From the IMG/VR virus record IMGVR_UViG_3300029234_000244: 17,679 nt of DNA; one strand, written 5' to 3'. Shown here piece after piece: positions 708-14,630 of this stretch. Both the position numbers and the translations under genes were made by a program. Origin of the DNA: a virus. Lineage: Duplodnaviria > Heunggongvirae > Uroviricota > Caudoviricetes. Every line of letters begins with the position of its first letter. The first letter of the stretch is position 1. Below the pieces are notes generated by a model. The model was not told where the DNA came from. It saw only the letters and a program-made list of their open reading frames with translations, and ran no database searches.

Positions 708-1227
708 GTGAAGGCGGAAAAGTAAGAATTGGCGTTACGAGTTATTCGATGTTGAATCTGTTTGTAGAGTGTTGGCTTCAATGCCGCATTGTAGCTGGTT
801 TCTTTCTAATGCGGTTTTTGATTATGTACACCCTTATGTACACGGTTTTTTCGGGTGCTTTGGCCAGAAGCCATTGTCTACATCCCTCACGATCGAGGTG
901 TGTAACCATGTTCAGGCTTGTTGTCCTGCGCGCGCGTATTGCTCGTGAAATTGCTGTAACCAATAGTGATGTCCGAAAAAACCTCCGTTCTCACATGAAA
1001 CAGCCATGTGCAACTGGTAACTGAATAGACTGGTAGACCGTTCGTTCAGTAAATACCTGATATTTTCGCCAACGAGAAATTGCGTTGGCTGGCAGAGTGC
1101 AAATTTGCACTATGACCTAACCCATTGTTTTTTTTCGAAAACCTACAATGCAGGAAGCCGGATAACACCATTTTTATAGCTCCGATCCCTTCAAAGTGAG
1201 GGGTAATTTGCCAAAACAGAGAGAGCA

Positions 1228-1515
1228 TTACTGTCTCTGGCAATCTTTATCGCGATAACGCCTGAAGTACCCTCTCGCTTCCTCATCCATACCAAGAGCC
1301 GAATGAGTCCGCTTAACTGCCTGTCTTAAATCTCCGAATCTGTCTGTAGTTGCTGGTGGGCGTGCCGCCTTACGGATACATTCAGAGCGTCTGTTTGCTG
1401 CATGTTCACGTTCTTTATCGCCATCTGCCAGCATCATGACTTCTGCCCATCGTGCGGCAGCTCTCCGGTATAGCCCTTTTGACTCCAGCTCTTCAGCTTT
1501 CCTGTCCTTTATCAT
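1228..1515 (-). CDS. PerC-family transcriptional regulator (Pch-like)
   Basis: 95-aa ORF with GAGAGG Shine-Dalgarno before the ATG at 1515. N-terminal AEELESKGLYRRAAARWAEVM resembles the conserved LE.KGLWRRAA.RW motif of PerC/Pch proteins, recalled from memory. Confidence 0.5.
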   Translation of the reverse strand: MIKDRKAEELESKGLYRRAAARWAEVMMLADGDKEREHAANRRSECIRKAARPPATTDRFGDLRQAVKRTHSALGMDEEARGYFRRYRDKDCQRQ

Positions 1516-2231: not shown

Positions 2232-3194
2232 TTATTCAATATCAAATAAATGCCTTGGGAAACCGTTATTATCAGGTAATCCCATGGCTGTCAGGTTACA
2301 TCCTGGTAAGTTAGGCTTGTTATCTACAAGGTTGGCAACTTTTTTTATCCAGTCAGATCCCGGTCCAATTTTTTTCACTAAAAACCATAACACAGCGATC
2401 ATTCCGTACATTCTTTCGTACGCATCATCATTCATATTTAATTGTTCAAAGTACGGCTCATTTGGCAAAGGCATTAATCTTGGTTCGTTGACCTTGTTCC
2501 AGATGCGTGAATGGTGAGCGCACCGATTCCTTAGCACATTCATTGCGCTAAGCCAGTTTTGGAAGATAGCTCCATTGCCTGCCGCTATCCCTAGCCTAGA
2601 TAGTATCCTGTTGCGATAGCTGTCTTTTAGCATCGCATAATACTTTGACATTAAGCCGAAGTCCCACACTTCAATAACCACCCAGAAAGGAAGACCTTCG
2701 TACTTGTTTTCATGCCATTTGATAAAGTCTTCGCGACTTTTAGCAATCTCGGCATTATGTTTATTTATCCATTCTTCTCTGGCGCTTGGGCGACCATGGG
2801 AACGTGGTCTAAAGTGTTTTGGATTTATTAGCGAGTCATCAAGATATGCTAAAGGAGATATCTTACCAAGCTCATGAGCAATAACTGACCGAACATAAAC
2901 CTCAATGCGTTCTAACGCATTCATCATCTGCAAACGCAGATTTTTATCGAATAAATAGAGGTCATATACTGCGCGAAAATTAGTACCTGGACGAACCTGA
3001 TCGAGTCTGGTTCTAATATTGTCTGTTGTTATATGGGGGATTCGGCAGGGGTACCAAAAGCCTGATAATCGGTAGTAGCCTACTTGTGAGATTTTCTTGA
3101 TAGCATGTTCGCGATCTGGCACATCCATACCCCGAGACAGCAATAAATCGACAAGTTCATCATATTCTTTATGAACCTTAACCGGAACAGCCAT
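2232..3194 (-). CDS. Abi_2-family abortive infection protein (AbiD/AbiF-like)
   Basis: 320-aa ORF with hallmark motifs GYYRLSGFWYP and LRNRCAHHSRIWN, and a typical N-terminus (YDELVDLLLSRGMDV). The gene is visibly AT-rich. Its stop is 1 nt from the stop of the convergent RHH gene. Confidence 0.8.
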   Translation of the reverse strand: MAVPVKVHKEYDELVDLLLSRGMDVPDREHAIKKISQVGYYRLSGFWYPCRIPHITTDNIRTRLDQVRPGTNFRAVYDLYLFDKNLRLQMMNALERIEVYVRSVIAHELGKISPLAYLDDSLINPKHFRPRSHGRPSAREEWINKHNAEIAKSREDFIKWHENKYEGLPFWVVIEVWDFGLMSKYYAMLKDSYRNRILSRLGIAAGNGAIFQNWLSAMNVLRNRCAHHSRIWNKVNEPRLMPLPNEPYFEQLNMNDDAYERMYGMIAVLWFLVKKIGPGSDWIKKVANLVDNKPNLPGCNLTAMGLPDNNGFPRHLFDIE

Positions 3195-4242: not shown

Positions 4243-6348
4243 TTATTGAGCTTCCTTTTGCGATGCTTGTGCGACTCTGGTGAGCGATTGTGTGACCGTA
4301 CTGATCGCTCTGTCATATGCTGTGCTACCTTTTGGCGTATTTGCCAGACGTAACAAGGCATTTCGTATAACAGGGCTTTCGTATGCCTTCGCTGCTCCGC
4401 CTACGGCACCAGCAGCAGGAACAACAAACGCAGCCGTTTTTAGCATCCCCGCTAATACTGCTGCGTTTATGATGCCACCACCAACTAACAATCCATAAAG
4501 CTGCTGACCATTTAAGTTTTGAACGTTCGCTTTTGCCGCGTGTCTTGTATCGTTGAGGTATTTAATAACGCCGTCCAGTTCCTTTCCATGTATGCCTTTA
4601 AAGAAAGTTGCTGATTGCTTCCTGTTCCGGTGTAACGCATTAATAAACTTCTCAACACTGATATTTCCAGACGGATCAGTCGCCTTATCTACAGCATTCT
4701 GAACTATGGCTGCTCGTGCGTTTTGCCTACCATTGTCATCCAGAAGCCTGTAAAGCTGAGAACGTTCTGATGGGCTTTGGCTAAAAACAAGTTTTGTTAC
4801 ATCCTCAGGCGTGGCCTTGCCGCTGGCTATTGCCTTTTGAACGCGCGTTCTTCCCATCATGTCATTGAATTTAGACCATGAGCGATCAACCCTTGCCATA
4901 TTAATAGCTTCGTCTGCTCCAAGATTTTTGGCTACGGCTTTTTTCATATCCGCCGTATATGCCTTGTAGATAATATCGCTGGCTTTCTGGAGCGTATCTT
5001 TATCAACAGTGTCAGATGACGCCATAAATCGCTTTCGAAGATCGGTTCTGTTTTCCCTCGCCAGACGCAGGTCATTTGGTCCGCTGGTGATATCGTCTTT
5101 AAATTGCTGCAAGACTTTTACCGCGGCTCTATCCTGAGATTTGCCCGGGCGGCTTAACACGGCAATCTGATTGTCGATAGCTTTTACCGTGTTTGAGAGA
5201 TCGACAGGGGTATCCCCCATAGCGTCAATTATGCGGTTATATCGCTTTCCTGCTGCCTCAATGAATTTTTGTTGCCCTTTAGTCGCAGATTCATAAAGCT
5301 GTTTATCAGAAATGCCACCCAGACCATCGCTAAATGTTCTGACTAAATTTTCTCGTGCTTGTTGTTGATTCAGCCGATTCTTACCGGTTCCAAAAAAAGG
5401 AACTCTTTCGCCTAATGTCTGAGCCTGACTCTGCATAAAGGTTTTATCTTTCAGCATGTCACTGGTCATTAACGGCAGATTTCTTTCCGATGCAAAGTCG
5501 ACAGCAGCCTTTGCTTCAGGCGACATATCACCACGAACAGCCCTCGAAACCGCACTCGCTGTATTTTCCAGCCCCTTACCAATACCACCAATGCCAGCAG
5601 AAATTACCGTTTGTAACGGATCAATATCTTCTCCACCAGCGAGGCTGGTGGCTCCCTGTAGTGCTAAATCTGTAGCTGCTGATTTCCCTATGGCCCCCAG
5701 CACCGTTCCGGCCCTGCCCGCTGGTGTAAACGCCAGCGCATTAGCCAGAAACGATGCCACGTCTTGCGGCGATAAACCCGGCTTGTTCAGAGCATAATCA
5801 CCGGATGGCAGGGAAACGATAGTGTTACCCTTCTCATCCTGCCTTAATTTCGCTCCCATGCTCTGAAGAATCTTTTCCTGAGATGCGTCAGAGCCGAAAA
5901 GTTGAGACCATCGAGCTTTTAGAGCATCCATGCTGAGTGAGGTTAACTCTGGGGCAAGGTCGACATTTTGCAGTCTCTCCATCTCTGGAGTCATTCGGCT
6001 TTCGCCTGTTATAGCATCGCGCATCGCAGCCCCAAGACTGGCTCCCTGTTCTGCTGAACGCTCAAGCCCCTCTCTTTGCTGAGTAGCTAACTTTGCATAC
6101 CCTGACGCAATAGAATTATCAGATGATGTATGTTGAATATTTTGAGTTGCTGATTGGGATCGGTCTATTTCATTCGTTGATGGTAGTGGATAGGCAGCAT
6201 AAAAAGCCTGCTTAGCCTGCTCTACACTTTCTCCGGCTTGCGGGGCAACGACTTCATTGAAGTATTGCTCCTGAGCCTGCGCTTTTTGTTCTGGTGCTAA
6301 CGCCTGATACTGTGGAGAGGCGATAACATCTTTCCATGCTTTAGCCAT
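4243..6348 (-). CDS. Hypothetical 701-aa protein, Ala/Gln/Gly-rich, C-proximal hydrophobic Gly/Ala segment
   Basis: Long ORF with GGGGTGA Shine-Dalgarno; its ATG overlaps the upstream stop (TAATG at 6346-6350). Contains LYGLLVGGGIINAAVLAGMLKTAAFVVPAAGAVGGAA about 60 aa from the C-terminus. I see no Walker A or other catalytic motif. Confidence 0.8.
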   Translation of the reverse strand: MAKAWKDVIASPQYQALAPEQKAQAQEQYFNEVVAPQAGESVEQAKQAFYAAYPLPSTNEIDRSQSATQNIQHTSSDNSIASGYAKLATQQREGLERSAEQGASLGAAMRDAITGESRMTPEMERLQNVDLAPELTSLSMDALKARWSQLFGSDASQEKILQSMGAKLRQDEKGNTIVSLPSGDYALNKPGLSPQDVASFLANALAFTPAGRAGTVLGAIGKSAATDLALQGATSLAGGEDIDPLQTVISAGIGGIGKGLENTASAVSRAVRGDMSPEAKAAVDFASERNLPLMTSDMLKDKTFMQSQAQTLGERVPFFGTGKNRLNQQQARENLVRTFSDGLGGISDKQLYESATKGQQKFIEAAGKRYNRIIDAMGDTPVDLSNTVKAIDNQIAVLSRPGKSQDRAAVKVLQQFKDDITSGPNDLRLARENRTDLRKRFMASSDTVDKDTLQKASDIIYKAYTADMKKAVAKNLGADEAINMARVDRSWSKFNDMMGRTRVQKAIASGKATPEDVTKLVFSQSPSERSQLYRLLDDNGRQNARAAIVQNAVDKATDPSGNISVEKFINALHRNRKQSATFFKGIHGKELDGVIKYLNDTRHAAKANVQNLNGQQLYGLLVGGGIINAAVLAGMLKTAAFVVPAAGAVGGAAKAYESPVIRNALLRLANTPKGSTAYDRAISTVTQSLTRVAQASQKEAQ

Positions 6349-7814
6349 TAATCACCCCATAGTGAAGAAAAGTTACTGCTGGCTGCTGGCTGTGATACCT
6401 GCTCAGATTGCGGCAATGTCTGCGACGAAGAAGAAGTTCCTCTGTCAACTGCTGAAATAACCCGCAAAGCATCATAAGTTCGACCAGAAGCAGCTTTCAG
6501 CGAATTGAACTGGTTTTCCATCTTCCGGCGCTTGGTATCAATGGTTTTTGTGGAGTCGCCAGGCTGAGGGAAATACATTTGATAATATTTTGACATTTCA
6601 GCAGGTGCGATAGCTGCCCCTGTTTCCTGACGGAGTATTGCCATTATTGCGTCATTAGCATTAACAACGTATTGCTGCTCTGCTGGGCTGAGCGTTAAGT
6701 TAGCCAGCGTCCCATTACCCAAAGCATTATTAATGATCGCCACTCGCTGTGGGCTAAGCTGGTCTTTCAGTGTATCTATTGAATCAAGAGCATCCCTAAC
6801 CCTGTATGCAAATCCAGCAGCTTTTTTAGCCCCTTCTGGCGACTTTTCCATGATCTTTTGGGCTGTTGGCAAAGCTATTGGACGAAACCCATCTCCAGAT
6901 ATTGGCTGGTTTAGTTTTCCCTGCTCTTCACTTCCGTCTGTGTAGTATTTTGTGACAGTGCCATCATCGTTTTCTCTAACACTCATTAATTTTTTGGTGT
7001 TTGTATTAATTCCAGCCGCTGCCGCAAATGCCGCCGCCCCCTCTGGATCAGCCTTTAACATTTGCGCGTACTGATTGTAATTCTGCATTGCTGCTGTTGG
7101 TGCATATGCTGACGTTAACGCATTTGCTCGGCTAATATCCTGCCCTCTCGCCTGAAGTGCTTCACCAGCCTGATTGCTGCGGATTGTCTCTGCCAACTTG
7201 CCACGCTCAATATCCCGACTTTCCATTTGATCTTTGATATCGAAATACTTCTCATGACCGAGAGAAAACAGCGCCAGATTACCTGCGAAATGCTGGAAGC
7301 CCTGCGGGTCATTAACCTGCATTTCAGCAATAGTTTCTGGAGGGATACCTAAACGACGCATCTCCTGCTCATTATCCATCATGAACCTGCCAAATGCGCC
7401 CGGACCAAGCGATGAGGCTACCTGTGCTTTGAGCGCCAGATTGCCATAATCATCCCTTTGAGCATCATCGACATAACTCATCCCTTTACGGACTTCCTCA
7501 AACTCTTCTGGGAATGCTGTAATAAGATTACGCATCTGCTCCCTGTCACCGGACGCATAAGCATCTGCATAACCTTTCTGGAATGCCGCTTTACGCTCCT
7601 GCTGTTGCTGCTGCTTATAAATATCAGCAACTCCAGCCAGACCACGAAGACCTGTCAGAGCAACGTTATTTGCACCTGATCGAGCCAGTTCATTGTTTTC
7701 GCGGATCAGACCAAGCGTTGCGTTAATGTCGCTTGCCTTTGGCGCATTCTCATTTTGCGTACCGATGCCAGCAAGAAACCCACCAGAATTAATACCCTGT
7801 TGCCACGTAGCCAT
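6348..7814 (-). CDS. Hypothetical 488-aa protein, Gln/Ala-rich, no recognisable domain
   Basis: Long ORF. I prefer ATG at 7814 (MATWQQGINSGG...), 4 nt after the stop of the 57-aa gene. The ORF track uses a GTG at 7826, which would overlap that gene. Stop overlaps the start of the 701-aa gene. Confidence 0.8.
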   Translation of the reverse strand: MATWQQGINSGGFLAGIGTQNENAPKASDINATLGLIRENNELARSGANNVALTGLRGLAGVADIYKQQQQQERKAAFQKGYADAYASGDREQMRNLITAFPEEFEEVRKGMSYVDDAQRDDYGNLALKAQVASSLGPGAFGRFMMDNEQEMRRLGIPPETIAEMQVNDPQGFQHFAGNLALFSLGHEKYFDIKDQMESRDIERGKLAETIRSNQAGEALQARGQDISRANALTSAYAPTAAMQNYNQYAQMLKADPEGAAAFAAAAGINTNTKKLMSVRENDDGTVTKYYTDGSEEQGKLNQPISGDGFRPIALPTAQKIMEKSPEGAKKAAGFAYRVRDALDSIDTLKDQLSPQRVAIINNALGNGTLANLTLSPAEQQYVVNANDAIMAILRQETGAAIAPAEMSKYYQMYFPQPGDSTKTIDTKRRKMENQFNSLKAASGRTYDALRVISAVDRGTSSSSQTLPQSEQVSQPAASSNFSSLWGD

Positions 7815-7818
7815 TGAT

Positions 7819-7992
7819 TTACCCACGTCCAGTTAAAGTGTAAGCCAGCGCCTTATCCATTAATCCCCGAGCAATTTCGTGGATCGTTGGCGCAACTCCT
7901 ACCTCTGATTTTTTACGCTGCTCCTCCTGAATTTTCTTTATCGCTTCCATTTGCTTCTCACTTATCAATACCGGCTTTACTGAAATAGCCAT
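7819..7992 (-). CDS. Small 57-aa protein, helix-rich, possible DNA-binding (HTH/RHH-like); first gene of the LexA-box operon
   Basis: Translated by hand: MAISVKPVLISEKQMEAIKKIQEEQRKKSEVGVAPTIHEIARGLMDKALAYTLTGRG. Shine-Dalgarno AAGGGGG lies 4 nt before the ATG at 7992. Below the 60-aa cut-off of the ORF track. Confidence 0.55.
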   Translation of the reverse strand: MAISVKPVLISEKQMEAIKKIQEEQRKKSEVGVAPTIHEIARGLMDKALAYTLTGRG

Positions 7993-8120: not shown

Positions 8121-8440
8121 CGTTCTGTGTGTCAGGTTTTGACAGGTTTTTTATGGACTCTAAAAACTATATTTATGGTGTCGCATTACTCTTCACGGCA
8201 GGCGCTTTTCAGTTCTGCCCTTGCTTCTGGCTCCATTGGTAATTTGATTCGCGATCAGCTATGCGGATGGTTTGCTGAACAGGCATAACAACTTCTCAGG
8301 GGCTGTTTTCTGAACTACGAAAATTTCGTAGTGCTCACTTTCAAAAACGTCACGCCCTTGTACACAGGATTTTACGAAAGTCTCGTAAAACACTCTCTGA
8401 TGCCAGCCAGGTGTTGAGCGCATCAATTCAGTCACATTGT

Positions 8441-8551
8441 GTTGGTTCAAAATACCGTGTTGTTGGTTCAGTGTTGGTTCAATAAAAAGAATAAAATCCT
8501 TACAAAACAATACTCTTTGCAAATTGAACCAACTGAACCAACTGAACCAAC
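8441..8551. repeat. Iteron cluster 2 (ori-like): 3 GTTGGTTCA at 21/11-bp spacing, AT-rich spacer, then 3 tandem TGAACCAAC
   Basis: GTTGGTTCA at 8441-8449, 8462-8470, 8473-8481. TGAACCAAC at 8525-8533, 8534-8542, 8543-8551. Located 25 bp after the primase stop. Inverted relative to cluster 1. Confidence 0.65.
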
Positions 8552-8576
8552 ACCTTTTCTACGCACATGAAGAAGC

Positions 8577-11333
8577 TCATTCTTCAGATGAGTTATAATC
8601 TCCTGGCTGGTAATTGAGTACATAAACGTTTATTTGTCGTCCCTGAATACGTGGTGATTTTCTTTGGTATCCACGACCGCTGTTTGGTGGGGTTAGCATC
8701 CCGGCTTTTTTCAACACTTCAGCAAACTGTTTTGCGTTGAAACCACATGCGATCTCCTTTTCAAATGTGGCCGGGAATGTGTAGAAAATCATTGGGCTTT
8801 CGTCATGTTCTCCACGCTGACGGTATCCGGCTAAATCTTTGATGGGCAAATCTGCCGGGCTGTATGGAAATGGTGCAAAACGGCTAAGCCCATAGGCATT
8901 AAGAAATGCCTCCGTTTGTTCAATAATCTGCTGATGTTCTTTGTTACCTGTGCCGAACTCGCGCAACCATGCGTTATAGCTGTGCTGTATCGCATCACGG
9001 CATGTCTGAGCATCCCAGCCTGTTACAACTTCGCCTAACAGCAATGCTGCCTCCAGAATGGCAAATCGCGCGGCTACACGGTGAACCTGCTCACCATAAT
9101 CGGATGGGATCAGGCTTCTCCATCTGCTTTCGCAATCACGAACAGTTTTAATAGCCTGTTGCTGGTGGTCTGCCAGCCATTTAATCCACTCACGCCCGGC
9201 TGCGCCGTGGTGATGCTGGTAAGCGTCTTTCAGTGCGTCTGCGTGCTGTTTTCCGTTCTGGTAATCGTGAAAGCGTACTGCTTTACTCAACGGAATATTC
9301 AGCAGTCGCACCAGTTGCCCGGCTTTGGTTTTTCGCCCGGAAGTAGCGATAAATGTTTCTAAATCCATTTCTCCGGTGCTGATTGCCACTGTACGCCAGC
9401 GTTTTAGATCCCGGTTTCCACCATCTTTAGCGCCTTGCAGTTTCCCTACACCGTTAAATAACGCATAGGCAGACTGTGAAACGCTGACAGGATCAGCGCC
9501 CTGACCAACTTCATCAAGCGGCATTAATCCGTCATTGTGGGCGGCGGCCTCATTTGCCAGCCCCAGCGCGGTTCCGTACCACGTCAGCCGCAGTAAATCA
9601 GGGTTGCCGTATAAGCTGCTCGCCACGTTTGCCGTGGTGGTCTTACCCGCGCTCGACTGCTCATAGAAATGAATGCCGAACCCGTCAGCGCCCACCAGCC
9701 CAATCAATGGCGCTGCCAGTGCTGCGCCGATCCCGGTCATCATTGAATAGTTACCAAAGGCCAGACGCGCCACGTTATCACGCCAGCTTTTCGCGCTCCC
9801 TGAGACGGTATATCCGGCTGCGGCTGAGCTTCTCCCGCTGAACAGCACAGGATTTTCAGGTGTTCCGATGATTTCCCCATCAGGCATGATGTACGCTCCG
9901 CATTGCCAGCCAGTGGCATGAGCAACACGCCACAATTCACGAGAGCCACTGCGTTGTAGCCAGTCTGCCAGTATTGCTCTGAGGCTGCTTTTGGTCGTGA
10001 CATTTACCCCACCAGCTTTAAGTGTGCGCCATCCTTCACGTTCACCAATATCAGCCAGTGGAATGGCAGCGGTTGTCGGCGTTTCAGAACCAAACGACAG
10101 CCAGCGAAGAATGAGATACTGGTCTTTATCGTCTCTGCCAGTACCGATAACGCTTAACGGAGAACATAACCAGCTTTCGTTATTGATGATTTCTCCACTC
10201 TGGCTGTCAGCTCTCGGAGATACCCAATAAATACCATCCTCGCGGCTTTCTATTCTTGGTTTCAGTGGGTCGGTATCCATAACCTTAAAATCGCTTCCCT
10301 CAATGGTCTGTGGCTCCTGTTTCACGCCATTACCCTGTGGTTGGTACATTGACTTATTGAACGCTTCTGTGGCGCATTTAATGCCGTGTTTTTGGTGGTA
10401 ATCATTCCAGTCTGCTTTGTGATCTGTCGGGGGTAATGCCACCCATCCAGAAACAGATAAAGCTGCTTTTTCTGCTGCTATTCTCCCCGTGTTTTGTCTT
10501 CCTTCGCTGTGGTCGTTATCCGCAGCAATGATGATTTGTGCTGAAGGAAATTTATCCCGCAGTACCTGGGCGACATATAACAGGTTCCCGGCATCAATCG
10601 CCGCCACTGTCAGCGCCTCTGGACGAATTAAATGGGCAGATAATGCCGTTGCCAGCCCTTCTGCGATTAAGATGCTCTGTGTTGTTTCTGGTGCGTTTAT
10701 GGCGTGATATGCCCCTCGCTTTGCTGAACCTGTCAGGAGTCTTTTTTCACCATGTGAGGTAATAGTCTGTGCTGCTGTGACTGCGCCGGATTTATCCACC
10801 AGCGCCAGCAACAGAGATCCATCGGGCAACACGGGGAATGTAAAATCACCTACCCCTTTCGCAACCAGATAATCAGATTTGCCGTTTACAGCCTTTCTGC
10901 GCATGTCATCAAACTGACGGGAAAACGTATCCCGTCTTTGTTGTTCGTCCTTCTCTGCCCTTTTCAGGCGCTCCTGTTCGCGTCGCTGGCGCTCGGTTTC
11001 CAGTTGTTCCCGTTTCTGGCTGGTGGCTTCTGGTGTTTCCGTTGTCCGGTAATCAATACCCAGAACATCAGCGGCAAGAAGCGCCGCCTCTGTTGTGTCG
11101 CAGTTATTTACGCGTTTAATTAAATCCAGCCCATCACCAGCGCCGCACTGATTACAGATGAAGCTACCGCGCCCGTTGTCATCGAACCGGAATCGATCTT
11201 TGCCCCCACATGCAGGGCAGGGAGCATGACGGCGCGGAGAGTCAGGGACATTTATGTTCAGGCAGCCCAGCACATGAGGCCAGTTGTTTTCAGACGCACT
11301 GATAACCTGACGGATAAGATCAATGTTTCGCAT
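8577..11333 (-). CDS. P4 alpha-like primase-helicase (zinc-ribbon + TOPRIM primase, C-terminal P-loop/origin-binding region)
   Basis: 918-aa ORF. N-terminal zinc ribbon CPACGG...FICNQCG. TOPRIM motifs LIAEGLATALS (conserved Glu) and IIIAADNDHSEG (DxD). P-loop-like SSAGKTT. Shine-Dalgarno GGGGG before the ATG at 11333. Confidence 0.9.
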   Translation of the reverse strand: MRNIDLIRQVISASENNWPHVLGCLNINVPDSPRRHAPCPACGGKDRFRFDDNGRGSFICNQCGAGDGLDLIKRVNNCDTTEAALLAADVLGIDYRTTETPEATSQKREQLETERQRREQERLKRAEKDEQQRRDTFSRQFDDMRRKAVNGKSDYLVAKGVGDFTFPVLPDGSLLLALVDKSGAVTAAQTITSHGEKRLLTGSAKRGAYHAINAPETTQSILIAEGLATALSAHLIRPEALTVAAIDAGNLLYVAQVLRDKFPSAQIIIAADNDHSEGRQNTGRIAAEKAALSVSGWVALPPTDHKADWNDYHQKHGIKCATEAFNKSMYQPQGNGVKQEPQTIEGSDFKVMDTDPLKPRIESREDGIYWVSPRADSQSGEIINNESWLCSPLSVIGTGRDDKDQYLILRWLSFGSETPTTAAIPLADIGEREGWRTLKAGGVNVTTKSSLRAILADWLQRSGSRELWRVAHATGWQCGAYIMPDGEIIGTPENPVLFSGRSSAAAGYTVSGSAKSWRDNVARLAFGNYSMMTGIGAALAAPLIGLVGADGFGIHFYEQSSAGKTTTANVASSLYGNPDLLRLTWYGTALGLANEAAAHNDGLMPLDEVGQGADPVSVSQSAYALFNGVGKLQGAKDGGNRDLKRWRTVAISTGEMDLETFIATSGRKTKAGQLVRLLNIPLSKAVRFHDYQNGKQHADALKDAYQHHHGAAGREWIKWLADHQQQAIKTVRDCESRWRSLIPSDYGEQVHRVAARFAILEAALLLGEVVTGWDAQTCRDAIQHSYNAWLREFGTGNKEHQQIIEQTEAFLNAYGLSRFAPFPYSPADLPIKDLAGYRQRGEHDESPMIFYTFPATFEKEIACGFNAKQFAEVLKKAGMLTPPNSGRGYQRKSPRIQGRQINVYVLNYQPGDYNSSEE

Positions 11334-11948: not shown

Positions 11949-12162
11949 GTTTCGCCTCGCCTGAATGATTCTGTAACTCATATTTGCCCAACAATTCGTC
12001 CGCTTCCTGAATAGCTTCTGGTACGCCATTGAGCAGTGACATAACCGCGCCAATCATTAACTTGTCTCTGTTGCTGGGGCTGGCCCCTTCAAGCCAGAAC
12101 CCTAAAACAGTCTGAACCTGTTCGATGCGACATTGCGCTTCAATGAGCTGGATGTTGGTCAT
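11941..12162 (-). CDS. Hypothetical 73-aa protein
   Basis: ORF whose ATG overlaps the upstream stop (ATGA at 12159-12162); part of the coupled chain. Confidence 0.55.
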   Translation of the reverse strand: MTNIQLIEAQCRIEQVQTVLGFWLEGASPSNRDKLMIGAVMSLLNGVPEAIQEADELLGKYELQNHSGEAKHE

Positions 12163-12422
12163 TTCGCACTCTCCACATCGATTAAACCGATATCTATCAG
12201 GGAGGTAACTTTTTGTAGCCAGCTATTGATTACTGTCGCCTGTTCCCCTCCCACCGAGGGAACAATCTCATTCATCACATGAACCAGACCTGTGCGCGCT
12301 CTGGTAAGCCGTTCAGTCGCGCAATCTGCGGGAGTGAATGTGTCTGGATATGGCTCTTCGCGCCCCAGCAATGATTCAATTTCCAGCTCACACGGATGAC
12401 GATAAATTAAGTTGATATTCAT
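12159..12422 (-). CDS. Hypothetical 87-aa protein
   Basis: ATGA overlap with the upstream gene at 12419-12422; GGGGGTGA Shine-Dalgarno. Confidence 0.55.
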   Translation of the reverse strand: MNINLIYRHPCELEIESLLGREEPYPDTFTPADCATERLTRARTGLVHVMNEIVPSVGGEQATVINSWLQKVTSLIDIGLIDVESAK

Positions 12423-12607
12423 TTTTCACCCCCAAGAATTACCAGCTCGGCACGGGCATCGTTAACCAAAGATGAGCACGCTTTAATCGCATCCACGACA
12501 TCAGCAGTTTCTTCAGCCGAAAGACTGACAGCAACCAGGACAGCCGCTGCTTGCTCGATTAATTGAAGTGCGGACGTAAGGCGAGGGGTATTAATTGAGT
12601 TATTCAT
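12419..12607 (-). CDS. Hypothetical 62-aa protein
   Basis: Start chosen at ATG 12607 ([10 protein letters not shown]...) with GGGGG Shine-Dalgarno and ATGAATAA overlap with the upstream stop. The ORF track start at 12664 lacks a Shine-Dalgarno. Confidence 0.5.
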   Translation of the reverse strand: MNNSINTPRLTSALQLIEQAAAVLVAVSLSAEETADVVDAIKACSSLVNDARAELVILGGEK

Positions 12608-12818
12608 TGGTTGCCCCCGTTTTGCATGGCATTTGTCCACCTTCCAGCAGGAAATGAACGTCACGAACGGCGAGATCCAATATCGCGAGTAACGCCTTCA
12701 GTCTTTCGTCTCGTGAGGGAGAGTTGCTCACCAGAATGTCGTTAATCACTTCTGTCAGTGTGATGATCTGGCTTGTGCGTTCGAGGGGATCCATATGCAC
12801 ATCGTAGGTTTTAATCAT
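12600..12818 (-). CDS. Hypothetical 72-aa protein
   Basis: ATG at 12818 ([17 protein letters not shown]...) preceded by GGAGGTG Shine-Dalgarno; overlaps the Icd-like stop (ATGATTAA). Shares its frame with the C-terminus of the 342-codon ORF. Confidence 0.5.
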   Translation of the reverse strand: MIKTYDVHMDPLERTSQIITLTEVINDILVSNSPSRDERLKALLAILDLAVRDVHFLLEGGQMPCKTGATNE

Positions 12819-13628
12819 GTGCCACCTCCATGCGGATACGACCAGCAAAAAAGCAGACGTGATCGCGCACCAGAGAACGGCGAGCATCGCGTTCAGACTC
12901 GGCAGCAATATGATGAATTTTGGCGGTAATTGTCGGGCAATCGCGGCGAACTGCGGCGATAATCCAGATAAATTGAGGTTTTTGGGTAGGGGTAGTAGCC
13001 AGCATGTGGCAGCCTCCTTGATTGATGGTTTATAGCCACCGCCCAAGAGACCAATCTTGCTGGCGGTGGACTGTACGGAGTTGGCCTTACTGGCAATCAA
13101 GGAAACCAGCCTACCCGAAGGTAGCCCCATACAGCCCACCATTGATAAGGTGTGCGTGTGCGCCGATACAAAAAAAGACGCTGGCGCGTCATGTATCGCC
13201 TCGATTGTCAGCGGGAGGCCAATCCCGGCACCCGTTTTATGAGGTGCTTTATAACCATAAACCGTGTTGCCGCATAACGGCAAGCTCTTTTTTATGGACT
13301 CCGAAAACTCAGTATTGGAAGCACCAGATGCACAGTACATCGCGCTCATTTCGTTAACGTCACGCACGTGGACGAATGTTTTTGTGGAGTCACTACACGA
13401 GCGGAAGACATCATCTACGACCAGAAATTTTCTGGCGCAGCCGCTGACCTTCTCAATGCTAATATCATCGCCCGAGATTTCTGGTATGGTTAAGGCATCC
13501 GTTCCGACCACCAGCAAATGATAAACTTTGCTTGCATCTGCTGTATTAATGCCTGACTTTGCCGTCATATTGCTGGATTTTGGCGACATACCTGCCAGTG
13601 AAAATGTCTTCTTCTGGACGGTTAGCAT
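12600..13628 (-). CDS. Hypothetical protein; 342-codon ORF that is probably composite (only the first ~205 codons, about 13012-13628, are well supported)
   Basis: ATG at 13628 has GGAGG Shine-Dalgarno and is coupled to the DUF4222 stop (ATGCTAA). The frame stays open to 12600, but codons about 208-270 run out of frame across the Icd-like gene and translate to low-complexity sequence. Codons 271-342 equal the separately supported 72-aa gene. Confidence 0.4.
12811..13005 (-). CDS. Host cell division inhibitor Icd-like protein (64 aa)
   Basis: ATG at 13005 preceded by a strong Shine-Dalgarno AGGAGG at 7-nt spacing. Protein [21 protein letters not shown]...[16 protein letters not shown] resembles Icd-like proteins of P4-like islands, from memory. 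Confidence 0.5.
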   Translation of the reverse strand: MLATTPTQKPQFIWIIAAVRRDCPTITAKIHHIAAESERDARRSLVRDHVCFFAGRIRMEVAHD

Positions 13629-13804
13629 TTGTTAACCTCCGCGAACTCCTTCATGAAACGTGCCAGCGGTTGTACGCATGGCGATTGATACCCGTCGCGA
13701 TAAAACGTCACTCGGTTGTGAGACACGCTTTCGACAGTAACGAGTGCTCCGTGGGCATCTTTGTAGCGTTTTTGTGGTTGTGGTATTCCTGTTGGCTTAG
13801 ACAT
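13622..13804 (-). CDS. DUF4222-like small protein (60 aa)
   Basis: ATG at 13804 (MSKPTGIPQPQKRYKDAHGALVTVESV...RVTFYRDGYQSPCVQPLARF) overlaps the AntA stop. The pattern matches DUF4222 as I recall it. The ORF track start at 13891 would overlap AntA. Confidence 0.55.
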   Translation of the reverse strand: MSKPTGIPQPQKRYKDAHGALVTVESVSHNRVTFYRDGYQSPCVQPLARFMKEFAEVNKC

Positions 13805-14630
13805 TGAGCGCCTCCAGACGCTTGGCGAGCCAGCGTTGCGACAGGCGGGTGAGTTCTCCTTTGCGCTGCTCATATTCCATGCCCATATCAATTAACGTGA
13901 TATTGGTGCTTTCGAGATATGAGAGGTGCTCAAGCTGTTCTGCGTTCATATGGTCGCGAGGTTCGCCAGAATAGCCATTTATCCGCGCCCACTGCTTAGC
14001 AGTTAGCCCACCAAGAACGATACGAGAAATCATATTGCTCTCGTTTGTGTAGTGGTGTTGCTGCGTCGTTTTCCCCTGCTCGGCACGGGCCATGTTCAGC
14101 GCATCGCACATTGGCTTAAAGTTGTTTGCGGCACTGATACGGGCTTTTAGCTGGCGACGATAGCGGGCGGCGATTTCAGGCACGGTACGCTGTAATTCTT
14201 CCTCGCACTGGATGAAATAACGACGGATAGCGCGACCCTGATCATTGCGTTCGATCATTGCCAGTTCTTTCGCCATTCCGACACTTAACAGATAGTCTTT
14301 GCCGGGTCTGCCAGACTGCTTAATCTTGCTGTAAGCCGCGCCATTCGGGCTTTTCCCCAAATTTGGGGAAATTGTTTTATGGACTGAGTAATCGTGCCCA
14401 ATGGTGAAGTCATATTCAGAGATGCGATCAGTGATCCATGTAGAGAAGTCTTTTCCCACGCCCAACGCTTTGTGTAACGCTTTTGCGCTAACAATATTGG
14501 TTTCACGCCCACCTATATGACCAGAAATAACCGGGACAATTGCGGCAAATTCATTACCGTTAATTGTGCCCAGAGAGGCGTTCAGATGAGGGGCGGCCTC
14601 AGAAATTAATCTGCTTTTTTCGATGTTCAT
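13797..14630 (-). CDS. Phage antirepressor, AntA/AntB family
   Basis: 277-aa ORF. SAKALHKALGVGKDFSTWITDRISEYDFTIGHDY and DYLLSVGMAKELAMIERNDQGRAIRRYFIQCEE match the AntA-domain consensus pattern. GGAGA Shine-Dalgarno. Confidence 0.7.
   Translation of the reverse strand: MNIEKSRLISEAAPHLNASLGTINGNEFAAIVPVISGHIGGRETNIVSAKALHKALGVGKDFSTWITDRISEYDFTIGHDYSVHKTISPNLGKSPNGAAYSKIKQSGRPGKDYLLSVGMAKELAMIERNDQGRAIRRYFIQCEEELQRTVPEIAARYRRQLKARISAANNFKPMCDALNMARAEQGKTTQQHHYTNESNMISRIVLGGLTAKQWARINGYSGEPRDHMNAEQLEHLSYLESTNITLIDMGMEYEQRKGELTRLSQRWLAKRLEALNV

What the first reader, a model, noticed from the sequence alone, without database searches (positions are those of the whole stretch)
12600..13628. 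342-codon ORF is a composite of three independently supported genes: frameshift, sequencing error or overprinting
A well-supported start at 13628 (GGAGG plus coupling to the DUF4222 stop) opens a frame with no stop until 12600. Inside it, in another frame, lies an Icd-like gene with its own AGGAGG Shine-Dalgarno (13005-12811). The last 72 codons coincide with a third gene that has its own GGAGGTG Shine-Dalgarno (12818). The middle of the long ORF translates to Leu/Pro/Ser-rich low-complexity sequence typical of out-of-frame reading. A TAA that would end the first gene just upstream of the Icd Shine-Dalgarno exists in the Icd frame at 13032-13030.
Basis: seen in the sequence. Interest (0 to 1): 0.45.

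Follow-up and report, generated by a model that had tools for sequence, protein, structure and literature searches.

The report
Read-through ORF over phage immunity RNAs
The 342-codon reading frame is the counterpart of satellite phage P4's eta gene, an ORF laid over an RNA-based immunity switch and a small cell-division-inhibitor gene. Here it is shifted one base out of register with that inhibitor gene, so it runs on through the next gene.

Summary
The ORF 13628..12600 (-), the Icd-like gene 13005..12811 in another frame, and the 72-codon gene 12818..12600 all exist, each with a Shine-Dalgarno.

The "first gene" is not an ordinary protein gene. Its Pfam Ash match is the translation of an internal promoter, an isrK/seqA-like RNA (13247..13171) and a C4/CI antisense RNA (13146..13059). 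The C4 loop pairs with the Icd ribosome-binding site. This is the P4 eta-CI-kil (P1 c4-icd) immunity module.

- In 71 of 79 Icd loci from other species, the spanning ORF is in frame with Icd, as in P4.
- In the window and five other loci, the spacer before the Icd ATG is 1 nt shorter, so the ORF reads Icd in frame +1 and merges with gene 3.
- It is not a sequencing error: 479 E. coli genomes and four other genera share it.
- The ORF appears to be kept open by selection, but its amino-acid sequence is not conserved.
- The likely role, inferred from P4, is that ribosome transit protects upstream-promoter transcripts from C4/Rho-dependent termination.

Verdict: a known system in a new frame variant, of modest interest.

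The parts
12600..13628 (-). Eta-like read-through ORF (342 codons). PGAP annotates it as 'ash family protein'.
   Evidence: Searches show the ORF. Pfam PF10554 matches aa 124-218. P4 eta (L003 8168..8812) gives the same Pfam hit and also contains isrK, C4 and kil. An ORF is open across isrK and C4 in 77 of 79 independent Icd loci.
13622..13891 (-). Upstream DUF4222 gene. Its stop overlaps the ORF's ATG (ATGCTAA), which suggests translational coupling.
   Evidence: In 64 of 76 loci the start of the eta-like ORF overlaps the stop of an upstream ORF. [quoted passage not shown]
13254..13283 (-). Internal PLE-like promoter: -35 TTGCCG at 13283..13278 and -10 TATGGT at 13259..13254, 6 nt ahead of the isrK 5' end at 13247.
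   Evidence: About 35 loci, P4 included, share the motif GGCTTGCc - 18 nt - TAtaGT - 6 nt - G at a fixed distance from isrK position 1. The simple consensus scan did not flag it, because it matches only 8 of 12 positions. Promoter function is inferred.
13171..13247 (-). isrK-family RNA element (P4 seqA / P1 a1b1-type upstream C4 target), ending in a terminator-like hairpin.
   Evidence: Rfam RF01394 scores 65 bits against a gathering score of 50. The hairpin lies at 13190..13177 and is followed by a T run. The same element occurs in P4 and in 79 of 80 Icd loci.
13059..13146 (-). C4 / CI-type antisense immunity RNA. The specificity loop lies at about 13108..13094.
   Evidence: Rfam RF01695 scores 79.2 bits against a gathering score of 45. 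16 of 28 base pairs show compensatory changes across 27 loci.
13010..13024 (-). C4 target (seqC / a2b2-type) covering the Icd Shine-Dalgarno: CAATCAAGGAGGCTG.
   Evidence: It forms a 15-bp duplex (G-U pairs allowed) with C4 positions 39-53; 0 of 200 shuffles did as well. The variable loop octamer covaries with this site, and with isrK position ~41, across about 15 loci. The pattern has a single exact match in the window.
12811..13005 (-). Icd-like / Kil-like gene (64 aa), in frame +1 relative to the long ORF.
   Evidence: NCBIfam NF033153, E = 3.7e-20. It is 43% identical to P4 Kil. pN/pS is 0.22-0.48 in its own frame and 1.4-2.8 in the long-ORF frame.
12600..12818 (-). Gene 3: a 72-aa protein of unknown function with its own SD and an 8-nt overlap with the Icd stop. 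It shares frame and stop with the long ORF.
   Evidence: It is a stand-alone gene in L095 and in L087. It is conserved across four genera. Its own frame gives the lowest pN/pS: 0.36, against 4.5 and 0.93.

Best explanation
The region is the immunity module of a P4-like / PICI-type satellite island, built like P4 eta-CI-kil and P1 c4-icd.

**The immunity circuit**
- A constitutive promoter inside the long ORF (-35 at 13283, -10 at 13259) starts a leader RNA at about 13247.
- That RNA carries an isrK/seqA-like element and a C4/CI antisense RNA.
- Inferred from P4: the processed C4 RNA pairs through its hairpin-2 loop with the Icd ribosome-binding site (13024..13010) and with a related site in isrK.
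- Inferred from P4: this pairing blocks Icd translation and causes premature, Rho-dependent termination, which keeps the downstream replication genes (primase at 11333..8577) off.

**The long ORF**
- The 342-codon ORF is the eta counterpart. [quoted passage not shown]
- Inferred from P4: when transcription comes from an upstream promoter, ribosomes travelling along this ORF prevent the RNA pairing and Rho action, so those transcripts escape immunity.
- What is selected appears to be that the frame stays open, not what it encodes.

**What differs here**
- In P4 and most relatives, the ORF is in frame with icd/kil and ends at its stop.
- This island carries an immunity-cassette allele whose spacer before the Icd ATG is 1 nt shorter.
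- The ORF therefore reads icd in frame +1, meets no stop, and joins the frame of gene 3, whose ATG overlaps the Icd stop.

**Shown versus inferred**
- Shown here: the RNA genes, target complementarity and covariation, frame statistics, and cassette boundaries.
- Inferred from P4 literature: promoter activity, RNA processing, Rho-dependent termination, and anti-termination by translation.
For: **The RNA module**
- Rfam gathering-level hits for isrK and C4 lie inside the ORF on the same strand.
- P4's eta ORF has the same layout: isrK, C4/CI, and kil in frame. Pfam Phage_ASH matches P4 eta, not epsilon.
- PMC10111431 summarises the P4 mechanism. It notes that the Rfam C4 and isrK models detect CI and seqA.
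- 79 of 80 Icd-like loci chosen by Icd protein alone carry C4 and isrK upstream.
- The C4 structure shows 16 of 28 pairs with compensatory changes.
- The loop octamer covaries with the Icd SD site and with an isrK site.
- Promoter hexamers are conserved at a fixed distance from the isrK 5' end.

**The ORF is kept open**
- 77 of 79 loci have an ORF open from isrK through C4.
- The isrK-to-C4 distance falls in eight length classes (98 to 185 nt), all equal to 2 mod 3. The one exception, 139 nt, has a broken ORF.
- The ORF start overlaps an upstream stop in 64 of 76 loci.
- All 6 window-type loci keep the +1 frame over Icd free of stops. Synonymous randomisation of Icd predicts that outcome with P = 0.07-0.20 per locus. 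All 13 in-frame relatives of the same Icd subfamily have at least one stop there.

**The amino-acid sequence is not under selection**
- There is no codon periodicity in the long-ORF frame outside gene 3. pN/pS is 0.6-1.5 across the N-terminus, the RNA elements and the spacers, and 1.3 in the stop-poor Icd overlap, where the 12 E. coli copies differ at only 8 sites.
- pN/pS is 1.4-2.8 for the +1 reading of Icd between genera.
- AlphaFold2 gives a mean pLDDT of 32.

**Cassette exchange**
- The window and L095 are nearly identical on both flanks. They diverge exactly from the isrK +1 position to the Icd ATG. L095 is in frame, with a stand-alone gene 3.
- BLAST similarity to Stx and P1-like phages is confined to 13246..12984.
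Against: - No expression data are available. Promoter activity, C4 processing, Rho dependence and translation of the long ORF are all inferred by homology with P4.
- The six window-type loci are related, so the stop-avoidance statistic is not based on six independent events.
- Overall, the +1 frame of Icd is intrinsically stop-poor: it is open in 40 of 73 in-frame loci.
- The 126-codon N-terminal extension gives no clear sign of either coding constraint or its absence (pN/pS 0.60).
- An intrinsic-terminator-like hairpin sits inside the ORF. Upstream transcripts would have to read through it.
- The primary P4 papers (Forti 1999, Sabbattini 1995) could not be read here. Their content is taken from a secondary summary and from my own knowledge.
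Confidence: 0.75

Rival explanations
1. The long ORF is never translated, or is translated only for a few codons. Only the two RNAs, Icd and gene 3 are functional. The open frame is inherited inertia in GC-rich, structurally constrained RNA sequence, and the 'ash family protein' is an annotation artefact.
For: - The ORF shows no protein-level constraint.
- The Pfam domain coincides with the RNA genes, promoter and terminator.
- AlphaFold2 finds no fold.
- The +1 frame of Icd is often open by chance (40 of 73 loci).
- Some loci have a broken ORF: L044, L071, L087, L094.
Against: - All eight length classes of the variable isrK-C4 spacer preserve the frame.
- 77 of 79 loci are open in one particular frame, and the other two frames are rarely open.
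- Start-stop overlap with the upstream gene is conserved in 64 of 76 loci.
- Within the Icd subfamily, the +1 frame is open in 6 of 6 window-type loci against 0 of 13 in-frame loci.
- P4 eta is reported to be translated, and that translation to have regulatory effect (PMC10111431).
Confidence: 0.13
2. The ORF encodes a true 342-aa multidomain Ash protein, for example a transcription regulator as some PHROG labels say. The protein itself is the functional product, and gene 3 is its C-terminal domain.
For: - Pfam and PHROG profiles match.
- Thousands of database proteins of similar length exist.
- The N-terminal motif AxQKxxFSLAG is conserved.
Against: - The conserved 'residues' map onto RNA elements. 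DAPASFF is the terminator hairpin plus U tract, and [14 protein letters not shown] is the C4 stems.
- Amino-acid changes track compensatory base-pair changes.
- The frame relation to Icd and gene 3 varies between sibling islands.
- pN/pS is about 1.
- Mean pLDDT is 32.
Confidence: 0.06
3. A recent frameshift mutation or a sequencing/assembly error in a P4-type eta-icd fusion gene. On this view the ORF is a pseudogene, as PGAP labels it in some genomes.
For: - In-frame fusion is the majority state (71 of 79 loci).
- The difference is a 1-nt shorter spacer.
- PGAP marks it 'frameshifted' or 'incomplete' in some genomes.
Against: - The same state occurs in 479 complete E. coli genomes from many laboratories and platforms, and in four other genera whose synonymous sites are saturated.
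- The indel is not in a homopolymer.
- The downstream +1 frame stays open.
Confidence: 0.04
4. Programmed -1 ribosomal frameshifting near 13030..13005 restores an Eta-Icd fusion protein.
For: - Moving from the long-ORF frame to the Icd frame needs a -1 shift.
- A strong internal SD (AAGGAGG) lies just upstream.
- In-frame fusions exist elsewhere.
Against: - There is no X XXY YYZ slippery heptamer between the Icd-frame TAA (13032..13030) and the Icd ATG, nor in the first Icd codons.
- The nearest candidate, C AAA AAC at 12984..12978, is imperfect and lies after homology to Icd has already begun.
- The SD is fully explained as the Icd RBS and C4 target.
Confidence: 0.02

Closest known systems
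Satellite phage P4 immunity region: eta (orf199), CI RNA, seqA/seqC, kil
   Same: - Same order of parts: upstream gene stop overlapping the eta start, internal constitutive promoter, isrK/seqA element, C4/CI RNA, target over the RBS of a roughly 65-aa Kil/Icd-like gene, then the replication operon.
- Rfam hits both RNAs in P4 and in the window.
- Pfam PF10554 hits both ORFs.
- Kil and the window Icd are 43% identical.
   Different: - In P4, kil is nested in frame within eta, and both end at the same stop. Here Icd is in frame +1 and the ORF continues through a further 72-codon gene.
- The ORF has a 126-codon N-terminal extension before the promoter, against about 25 codons in P4.
- The upstream coupled gene is DUF4222, not the AlpA/Vis homolog.
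Phage P1/P7 immI operon (c4 antisense RNA - icd - ant1/ant2)
   Same: - A C4 RNA whose loops pair with sites that cover the icd RBS.
- icd translation is needed for expression of the downstream genes.
- In a P1-like plasmid (L093), an ORF coupled to the pacB stop also runs through isrK and C4 in frame with icd.
   Different: - The downstream cargo here is small unknown genes and a primase-helicase, not the Ant antirepressor.
- The frame relation differs, as for P4.
Salmonella Gifsy-1 isrK-orf45-anrP locus (PMC4825925)
   Same: - An isrK-family RNA with a Rho-independent terminator, followed by a short translated ORF.
- That ORF's nucleotide sequence is conserved but its amino-acid sequence is not, and its translation is coupled to the downstream gene.
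- Stx-phage loci with isrK, C4 and a Rha/Bro gene resemble it.
   Different: [quoted passage not shown]
- No Icd follows it.
- No long spanning ORF that starts upstream has been described there.
Pfam PF10554 Phage_ASH / NCBI 'ash family protein'
   Same: The window ORF passes the Pfam gathering score (49.3 bits against 26).
   Different: The 'domain' corresponds to the -10 box, isrK, C4 and the Icd RBS (13259..12975). It is therefore a signature of the RNA immunity cassette read in one frame. There is no evidence here that it is a folded protein domain.

Membership tests
P4-type eta/CI/kil (P1 c4-icd) RNA immunity module | C4/CI antisense RNA with its conserved three-helix structure | tested here: met
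   RF01695 scores 79.2 bits against a gathering score of 45 at 13146..13059. Covariation is seen in 16 of 28 pairs.
P4-type eta/CI/kil (P1 c4-icd) RNA immunity module | Upstream target element (seqA / a1b1, detected by the Rfam isrK model) on the same transcript | tested here: met
   RF01394 scores 65 bits against a gathering score of 50 at 13247..13171. CAAUCGAGG in isrK is complementary to the C4 loop. The equivalent site covaries in other loci.
P4-type eta/CI/kil (P1 c4-icd) RNA immunity module | Downstream target (seqC / a2b2) overlapping the RBS of the first translated gene | tested here: met
   A 15-bp duplex forms between C4 13108..13094 and 13024..13010, which covers AAGGAGG. 0 of 200 shuffles did as well, and the pairing covaries across loci.
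P4-type eta/CI/kil (P1 c4-icd) RNA immunity module | A Kil/Icd-like small gene immediately downstream of the RNA | tested here: met
   NF033153, E = 3.7e-20. It aligns with P4 Kil.
P4-type eta/CI/kil (P1 c4-icd) RNA immunity module | A long ORF (eta) that starts upstream of the internal promoter, is coupled to the preceding gene, and spans seqA and CI | tested here: met
   ORF 13628..12600 has an ATGCTAA overlap with the DUF4222 stop. The same feature is found in 77 of 79 loci for the open ORF and 64 of 76 loci for the start-stop overlap.
P4-type eta/CI/kil (P1 c4-icd) RNA immunity module | kil/icd nested in frame within eta, with a shared stop codon | tested here: not met
   Icd is in frame +1 relative to the long ORF, which ends 211 nt past the Icd stop. 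The spacer is GCC-AC-ATG, against GCC-NNN-ATG in in-frame loci.
P4-type eta/CI/kil (P1 c4-icd) RNA immunity module | Constitutive promoter (PLE) firing at the 5' end of the seqA element | tested here: inconclusive
   Conserved -35/-10-like hexamers lie at a fixed distance from the isrK 5' end in about 35 loci, P4 included. The window's site falls below the generic scan threshold, and there are no transcript data.
P4-type eta/CI/kil (P1 c4-icd) RNA immunity module | CI-dependent, Rho-dependent premature termination, relieved by translation of eta | not testable with these tools
   Known for P4 only, through the secondary summary in PMC10111431. It needs in vivo assays.
Pfam PF10554 Phage_ASH | Score above the gathering threshold | tested here: met
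   49.3 bits against 26, aa 124-218. The matched DNA is the RNA cassette.
Programmed -1 ribosomal frameshift site | Slippery heptamer X XXY YYZ in the zero frame, in the stretch where the target (Icd) frame is open, plus a stimulator | tested here: not met
   There is no such heptamer between 13029 and the start of Icd homology.

The most novel reading that the evidence does not exclude
The exchangeable RNA immunity cassette sets the register of the read-through ORF, and so decides which downstream protein is made as a long isoform.

- With P4-type cassettes, the nested pair is Eta/Kil.
- With the window-type cassette, the nesting moves to gene 3. Its 72-aa product would then be made alone, under C4 control. 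It would also be made as the C-terminus of a 342-aa protein from immunity-insensitive upstream transcripts.
- Alongside this, selection keeps a 64-codon +1 overlap of icd free of stops purely so that ribosomes can transit. That would make it an ORF selected for openness rather than for its product.
Probability: 0.2. Interest if true: 0.55.

Novelty: new variant of a known kind. Interest (0 to 1): 0.38.

Why it matters
1. **Annotation.** NCBI's pipeline annotates this one locus in at least three incompatible ways across E. coli genomes: an intact 'ash family protein', an ash pseudogene plus Icd, or a 'frameshifted' Icd pseudogene plus gene 3. This work explains why.

2. **The Ash family.** Pfam PF10554, the 'ash family protein' name, and its use as an 'epsilon' marker for P4-like satellites actually report an RNA immunity cassette (promoter, isrK/seqA, C4/CI). 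The analysis here found no evidence of a folded protein domain. That matters for satellite and PICI detection and for functional inference.

3. **A natural experiment on P4 eta.** Sibling islands that differ only in the cassette put the ORF in different registers, yet the ORF stays open. This supports the idea that translation as such is the selected function, rather than the Eta polypeptide. It also offers silent-for-Icd stop-codon positions for a direct test.

Tried and rejected
- **Sequencing error.** Rejected: 479 complete E. coli genomes and other genera share the frame.
- **First gene ends at the TAA near 13030 in orthologs.** Rejected: no relative ends there.
- **Programmed frameshift.** Rejected: no slippery site.
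- **Ash as a protein domain.** Tested with pN/pS, codon periodicity, covariation and AlphaFold2. No protein-level signal was found. The AlphaFold2 alignment was shallow (21 sequences), so that test is weak.
- **Purely spurious, untranslated ORF.** This was my first idea once Rfam hit. I downgraded it after the frame-preserving spacer lengths, the start-stop coupling and the +1 stop avoidance.
- **Generic promoter scan.** It did not flag the internal promoter. Only the comparative alignment did.
- **Primary P4 papers.** PMC94026 and PMC176756 are not held.
- **Extra C4 targets in the window.** Only weak 2-mismatch matches were found.
- **N-terminal 115 aa.** No Pfam family matched.
Full report
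**1. The observation**

On the minus strand, an ORF runs from ATG 13628 to TAA 12602..12600, 342 codons.
- Its ATG follows GGAGG and overlaps the stop of the DUF4222 gene as ATGCTAA.
- A 64-codon ORF (13005..12811) lies inside it in another frame, behind AAGGAGG. It matches NCBIfam NF033153, 'host cell division inhibitor Icd-like', at E = 3.7e-20.
- A third start (ATG 12818, behind GGAGGTG) overlaps the Icd stop by 8 nt and shares the long ORF's frame and stop.
- The TAA at 13032..13030 is in the Icd frame.

**2. What the "first gene" is**

Pfam places its only domain, Phage_ASH (PF10554), on residues 124-218, which is nt 13259..12975. Rfam finds two RNA genes at gathering level in exactly that stretch, on the same strand:
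- isrK (RF01394): 13247..13171, 65 bits against a gathering score of 50.
- C4 antisense RNA (RF01695): 13146..13059, 79.2 bits against 45.

The most conserved 'Ash residues' are readings of RNA and DNA signals:
- GAC GCG CCA GCG TCT TTT TTT (D-A-P-A-S-F-F) is the isrK terminator hairpin plus its U tract.
- [14 protein letters not shown] is the C4 outer stem and first hairpin.
- [12 protein letters not shown] is a conserved -35/-10 promoter pair.

PHROG profiles 29966 and 6928 cover the Ash part and the Icd part in one profile. So in-frame Ash-Icd fusions exist elsewhere.

**3. The known system it matches**

In satellite phage P4 (NC_001609), the ORF 8168..8812 (eta/orf199) contains isrK (8692..8615) and C4, which is the CI immunity RNA (8507..8420). 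It ends with the 65-aa kil gene in the same frame, reading '...QEAAIMATT...'.
- PF10554 matches P4 eta residues 37-161. It does not match P4 epsilon.
- Kil is 43% identical to the window's Icd.

PMC10111431 summarises the P4 mechanism:
- CI is encoded within eta.
- A constitutive promoter inside eta gives a transcript that is terminated early through CI/seqA interactions and is processed to CI.
- Kil is a truncated form of Eta.
[quoted passage not shown] The window's island has an integrase, AntA, DUF4222, this module, small genes, a DUF927 primase-helicase, P22-injectosome-like genes and Abi_2. It therefore has the integration / Bro / replication / late layout of Gram-negative PICI and P4-like satellites.

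**4. Comparative test with loci chosen independently of the ORF**

80 loci from 80 species-level genomes were retrieved with the Icd protein alone. 79 of them have C4 about 55 nt upstream of Icd, with isrK further upstream, all at Rfam gathering level. The 80th lacks upstream DNA.

Frame relations:
- In 77 of 79 loci, one frame is stop-free from the isrK start through the C4 end.
- In 71 of those, it is the Icd frame and ends at the Icd stop, as in P4.
- In five loci, it is frame +1: Escherichia sp. L005, Leclercia L015 and L017, Symbiopectobacterium L019, and Rosenbergiella L020. The window is the same.
- In four of those five, it runs 199-211 nt past the Icd stop, through a gene-3 homolog.

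The junction explains the difference. In-frame loci read GAGGCTGCC-NNN-ATG. Window-type loci read GAGGCTGCC-AC-ATG or -AA-ATG, one base shorter.

A sibling E. coli island (L095) is essentially identical to the window on both sides. It carries a divergent block exactly from the isrK +1 position to the Icd ATG. There the ORF is in frame with Icd (279 aa) and gene 3 is a stand-alone 72-aa gene.

BLAST similarity to Stx phages and P1-like phages is likewise confined to 13246..12984. The transcribed leader is therefore an exchangeable immunity cassette, and its length modulo 3 sets the register of the spanning ORF.

**5. RNA-level function**

- Across 27 loci, the C4 consensus structure has 16 of 28 pairs with compensatory double changes and almost no broken pairs.
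- The hairpin-2 loop octamer is hypervariable: CCTTGATT here, CCTGTGAA in P4, and CCTTGTAC, CCGATAAC, CCAATAAG and others elsewhere.
- In locus after locus, that octamer is complementary both to the sequence abutting the Icd Shine-Dalgarno and to a site near isrK position 41.
- In the window, C4 13108..13094 pairs with 13024..13010 over 15 bp including G-U pairs. 0 of 200 shuffles did as well.
- That target occurs once in the window.

This is the seqB/seqA/seqC (a'b'/a1b1/a2b2) logic of P4 and P1.

**6. Is the ORF itself selected?**

Evidence that the frame is kept open:
- The isrK-to-C4 distance takes eight values (98, 101, 128, 140, 143, 146, 176, 185 nt), all equal to 2 mod 3. The chance of that is about (1/3)^7. 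The single exception (139 nt, L071) has a broken ORF.
- An in-frame start codon overlaps the stop of an upstream ORF in 64 of 76 loci. The window (DUF4222), P4 (orf88) and a P1-like plasmid (pacB) are among them.
- The +1 frame over Icd is stop-free in all six window-type loci. All 13 in-frame loci of the same Icd subfamily have at least one stop there.
- With Icd's protein sequence held fixed and codons drawn at random, the +1 frame would be open with P = 0.07-0.20 per locus. Synonymous divergence between these loci is near saturation, with pS 0.33-0.67.

Evidence that the encoded amino acids are not selected:
- Among 12 E. coli copies, variable sites show no third-position excess in the N-terminus (22/11/19), isrK, C4 or the spacers. 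pN/pS there is 0.6-1.5.
- Between genera, the Icd frame has pN/pS 0.22-0.48 while the long-ORF frame over it has 1.4-2.8.
- AlphaFold2 on a 21-sequence alignment gives a mean pLDDT of 32, with only weak helices in the gene-3 part.
- Gene 3 behaves as a real small protein gene: its own frame gives the lowest pN/pS, it is conserved in four genera, and it is stand-alone in L095 and L087.

Caveats:
- The six window-type loci share ancestry.
- The +1 frame of Icd is stop-poor in general, open in 40 of 73 in-frame loci.
- Some loci have lost the ORF: L044, L071, L087 and O157 L094.

**7. Interpretation**

The best reading is an eta-type read-through ORF over a C4/CI immunity cassette. The selected property is ribosome passage, which would give protection from antisense pairing and Rho for transcripts coming from upstream. 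In this cassette allele the ORF is out of register with icd and so fused to gene 3.
- Shown here: the parts, the complementarity and covariation, the frame statistics, and the cassette boundaries.
- Inferred from P4: promoter activity, processing, Rho dependence, and anti-termination by translation.

Rivals considered were an untranslated artefact ORF, a true Ash protein, a pseudogene or sequencing error, and programmed frameshifting. Each is less well supported; the rival entries give the evidence on both sides.

**8. Annotation consequences**

PGAP annotates this locus in several ways:
- an intact 342- or 355-aa 'ash family protein';
- a partial ash pseudogene plus Icd;
- a 'frameshifted; internal stop' Icd pseudogene plus gene 3.

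PF10554 was also used as the profile for P4 'epsilon' in a survey of P4-like satellites (PMC8628076), although it matches eta and the RNA cassette.

**9. Verdict**

This is a known regulatory architecture (P4 eta-CI-kil, P1 c4-icd). The frame variant does not seem to have been described, judging from three full-text searches of open-access papers and bioRxiv preprints; the primary P4 papers are not in that library. It is widespread and apparently maintained. Interest is modest. The main value is in explaining a recurrent annotation conflict, and in providing a natural test of the view that what matters for eta is translation rather than the protein.

Noticed in passing
L003 (P4, NC_001609) 8168..8812; window 12975..13259: Pfam PF10554 (Phage_ASH) matches P4 eta over the isrK and C4/CI region, not P4 epsilon, which matches PF25738. 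Yet PF10554 was used as the 'epsilon' marker in a census of P4-like satellites (PMC8628076). That marker actually reports the RNA immunity cassette.
   Followed up: partly
L003 8168..8584 (-): The P4 RefSeq record still carries a CDS 'cI gene product (AA 1-137), transcriptional repressor' laid over the C4/CI RNA gene and kil. It does not annotate eta, kil or the RNA.
   Followed up: no
window 12984..13246 compared with L095 and with phage hits H31-H60: The block from the isrK +1 position to the Icd ATG behaves as an exchangeable cassette. The flanks are nearly identical to L095 while the block is divergent. The same block is 83-86% identical in Stx phages and P1-like phages, where it sits in front of different genes (Rha/Bro antirepressors, Icd).
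   Followed up: partly
window 12159..12422 (-); L002 2485..2748: In one RefSeq genome, the 87-aa ORF downstream of the module is named 'nicotinic acetylcholine receptor subunit beta'. This is clearly a spurious name transfer.
   Followed up: no
window 12419..12607 (-): The small gene after gene 3 is 62 aa here and 64 aa in the closest E. coli genomes. The difference is a 6-nt indel (…SAEETADVV… against …SAEEMDAADVV…). Its ATG overlaps the long ORF's stop as ATGAATAA.
   Followed up: partly
window 13374..13480 and 13280..13628; proteins P0091, P0010, P0024, P0097: The N-terminal part of the ORF occurs fused to other proteins in other genomes: a P22-type Inj_translocase, AntA and a terminase. 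About 107 nt of it is 90% identical to part of an annotated 'DNA-packaging protein'. These look like deletion or recombination products that end at the internal promoter region.
   Followed up: partly
window 13590..13620 (-): The DNA encoding the conserved N-terminal motif (…[10 protein letters not shown]…, CATTTTCACTGGCAGG) resembles the promoter-proximal sequence of P4-type loci (CCTTTTTCTGGCTTGCC). It may be a relic or a second copy of the -35 region, left upstream by an insertion of about 290 nt.
   Followed up: no
L094 (E. coli O157:H7) about 909..1313; L044, L071, L087: In some loci the spanning ORF is interrupted. In O157 the break is a frame change at the isrK T run. In L071 the spacer is 139 nt. 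L087 has an in-frame stop. These would be natural controls for the function of the ORF.
   Followed up: partly
window 2232..3194 (-), 4243..7826 (-): The island carries an Abi_2 abortive-infection-type gene. It also carries P22-injectosome-like genes (Inj_translocase plus a 701-aa ORF) downstream of the primase. This fits a satellite 'late/cargo' zone.
   Followed up: no
window 12848..12853 (-), T6 run inside icd; protein P0110: One database protein (P0110) reads Ash-Icd in frame and then switches into the long-ORF frame at the CTTTTTTG run, continuing into gene 3. The homopolymer may be a hotspot for frame changes.
   Followed up: no
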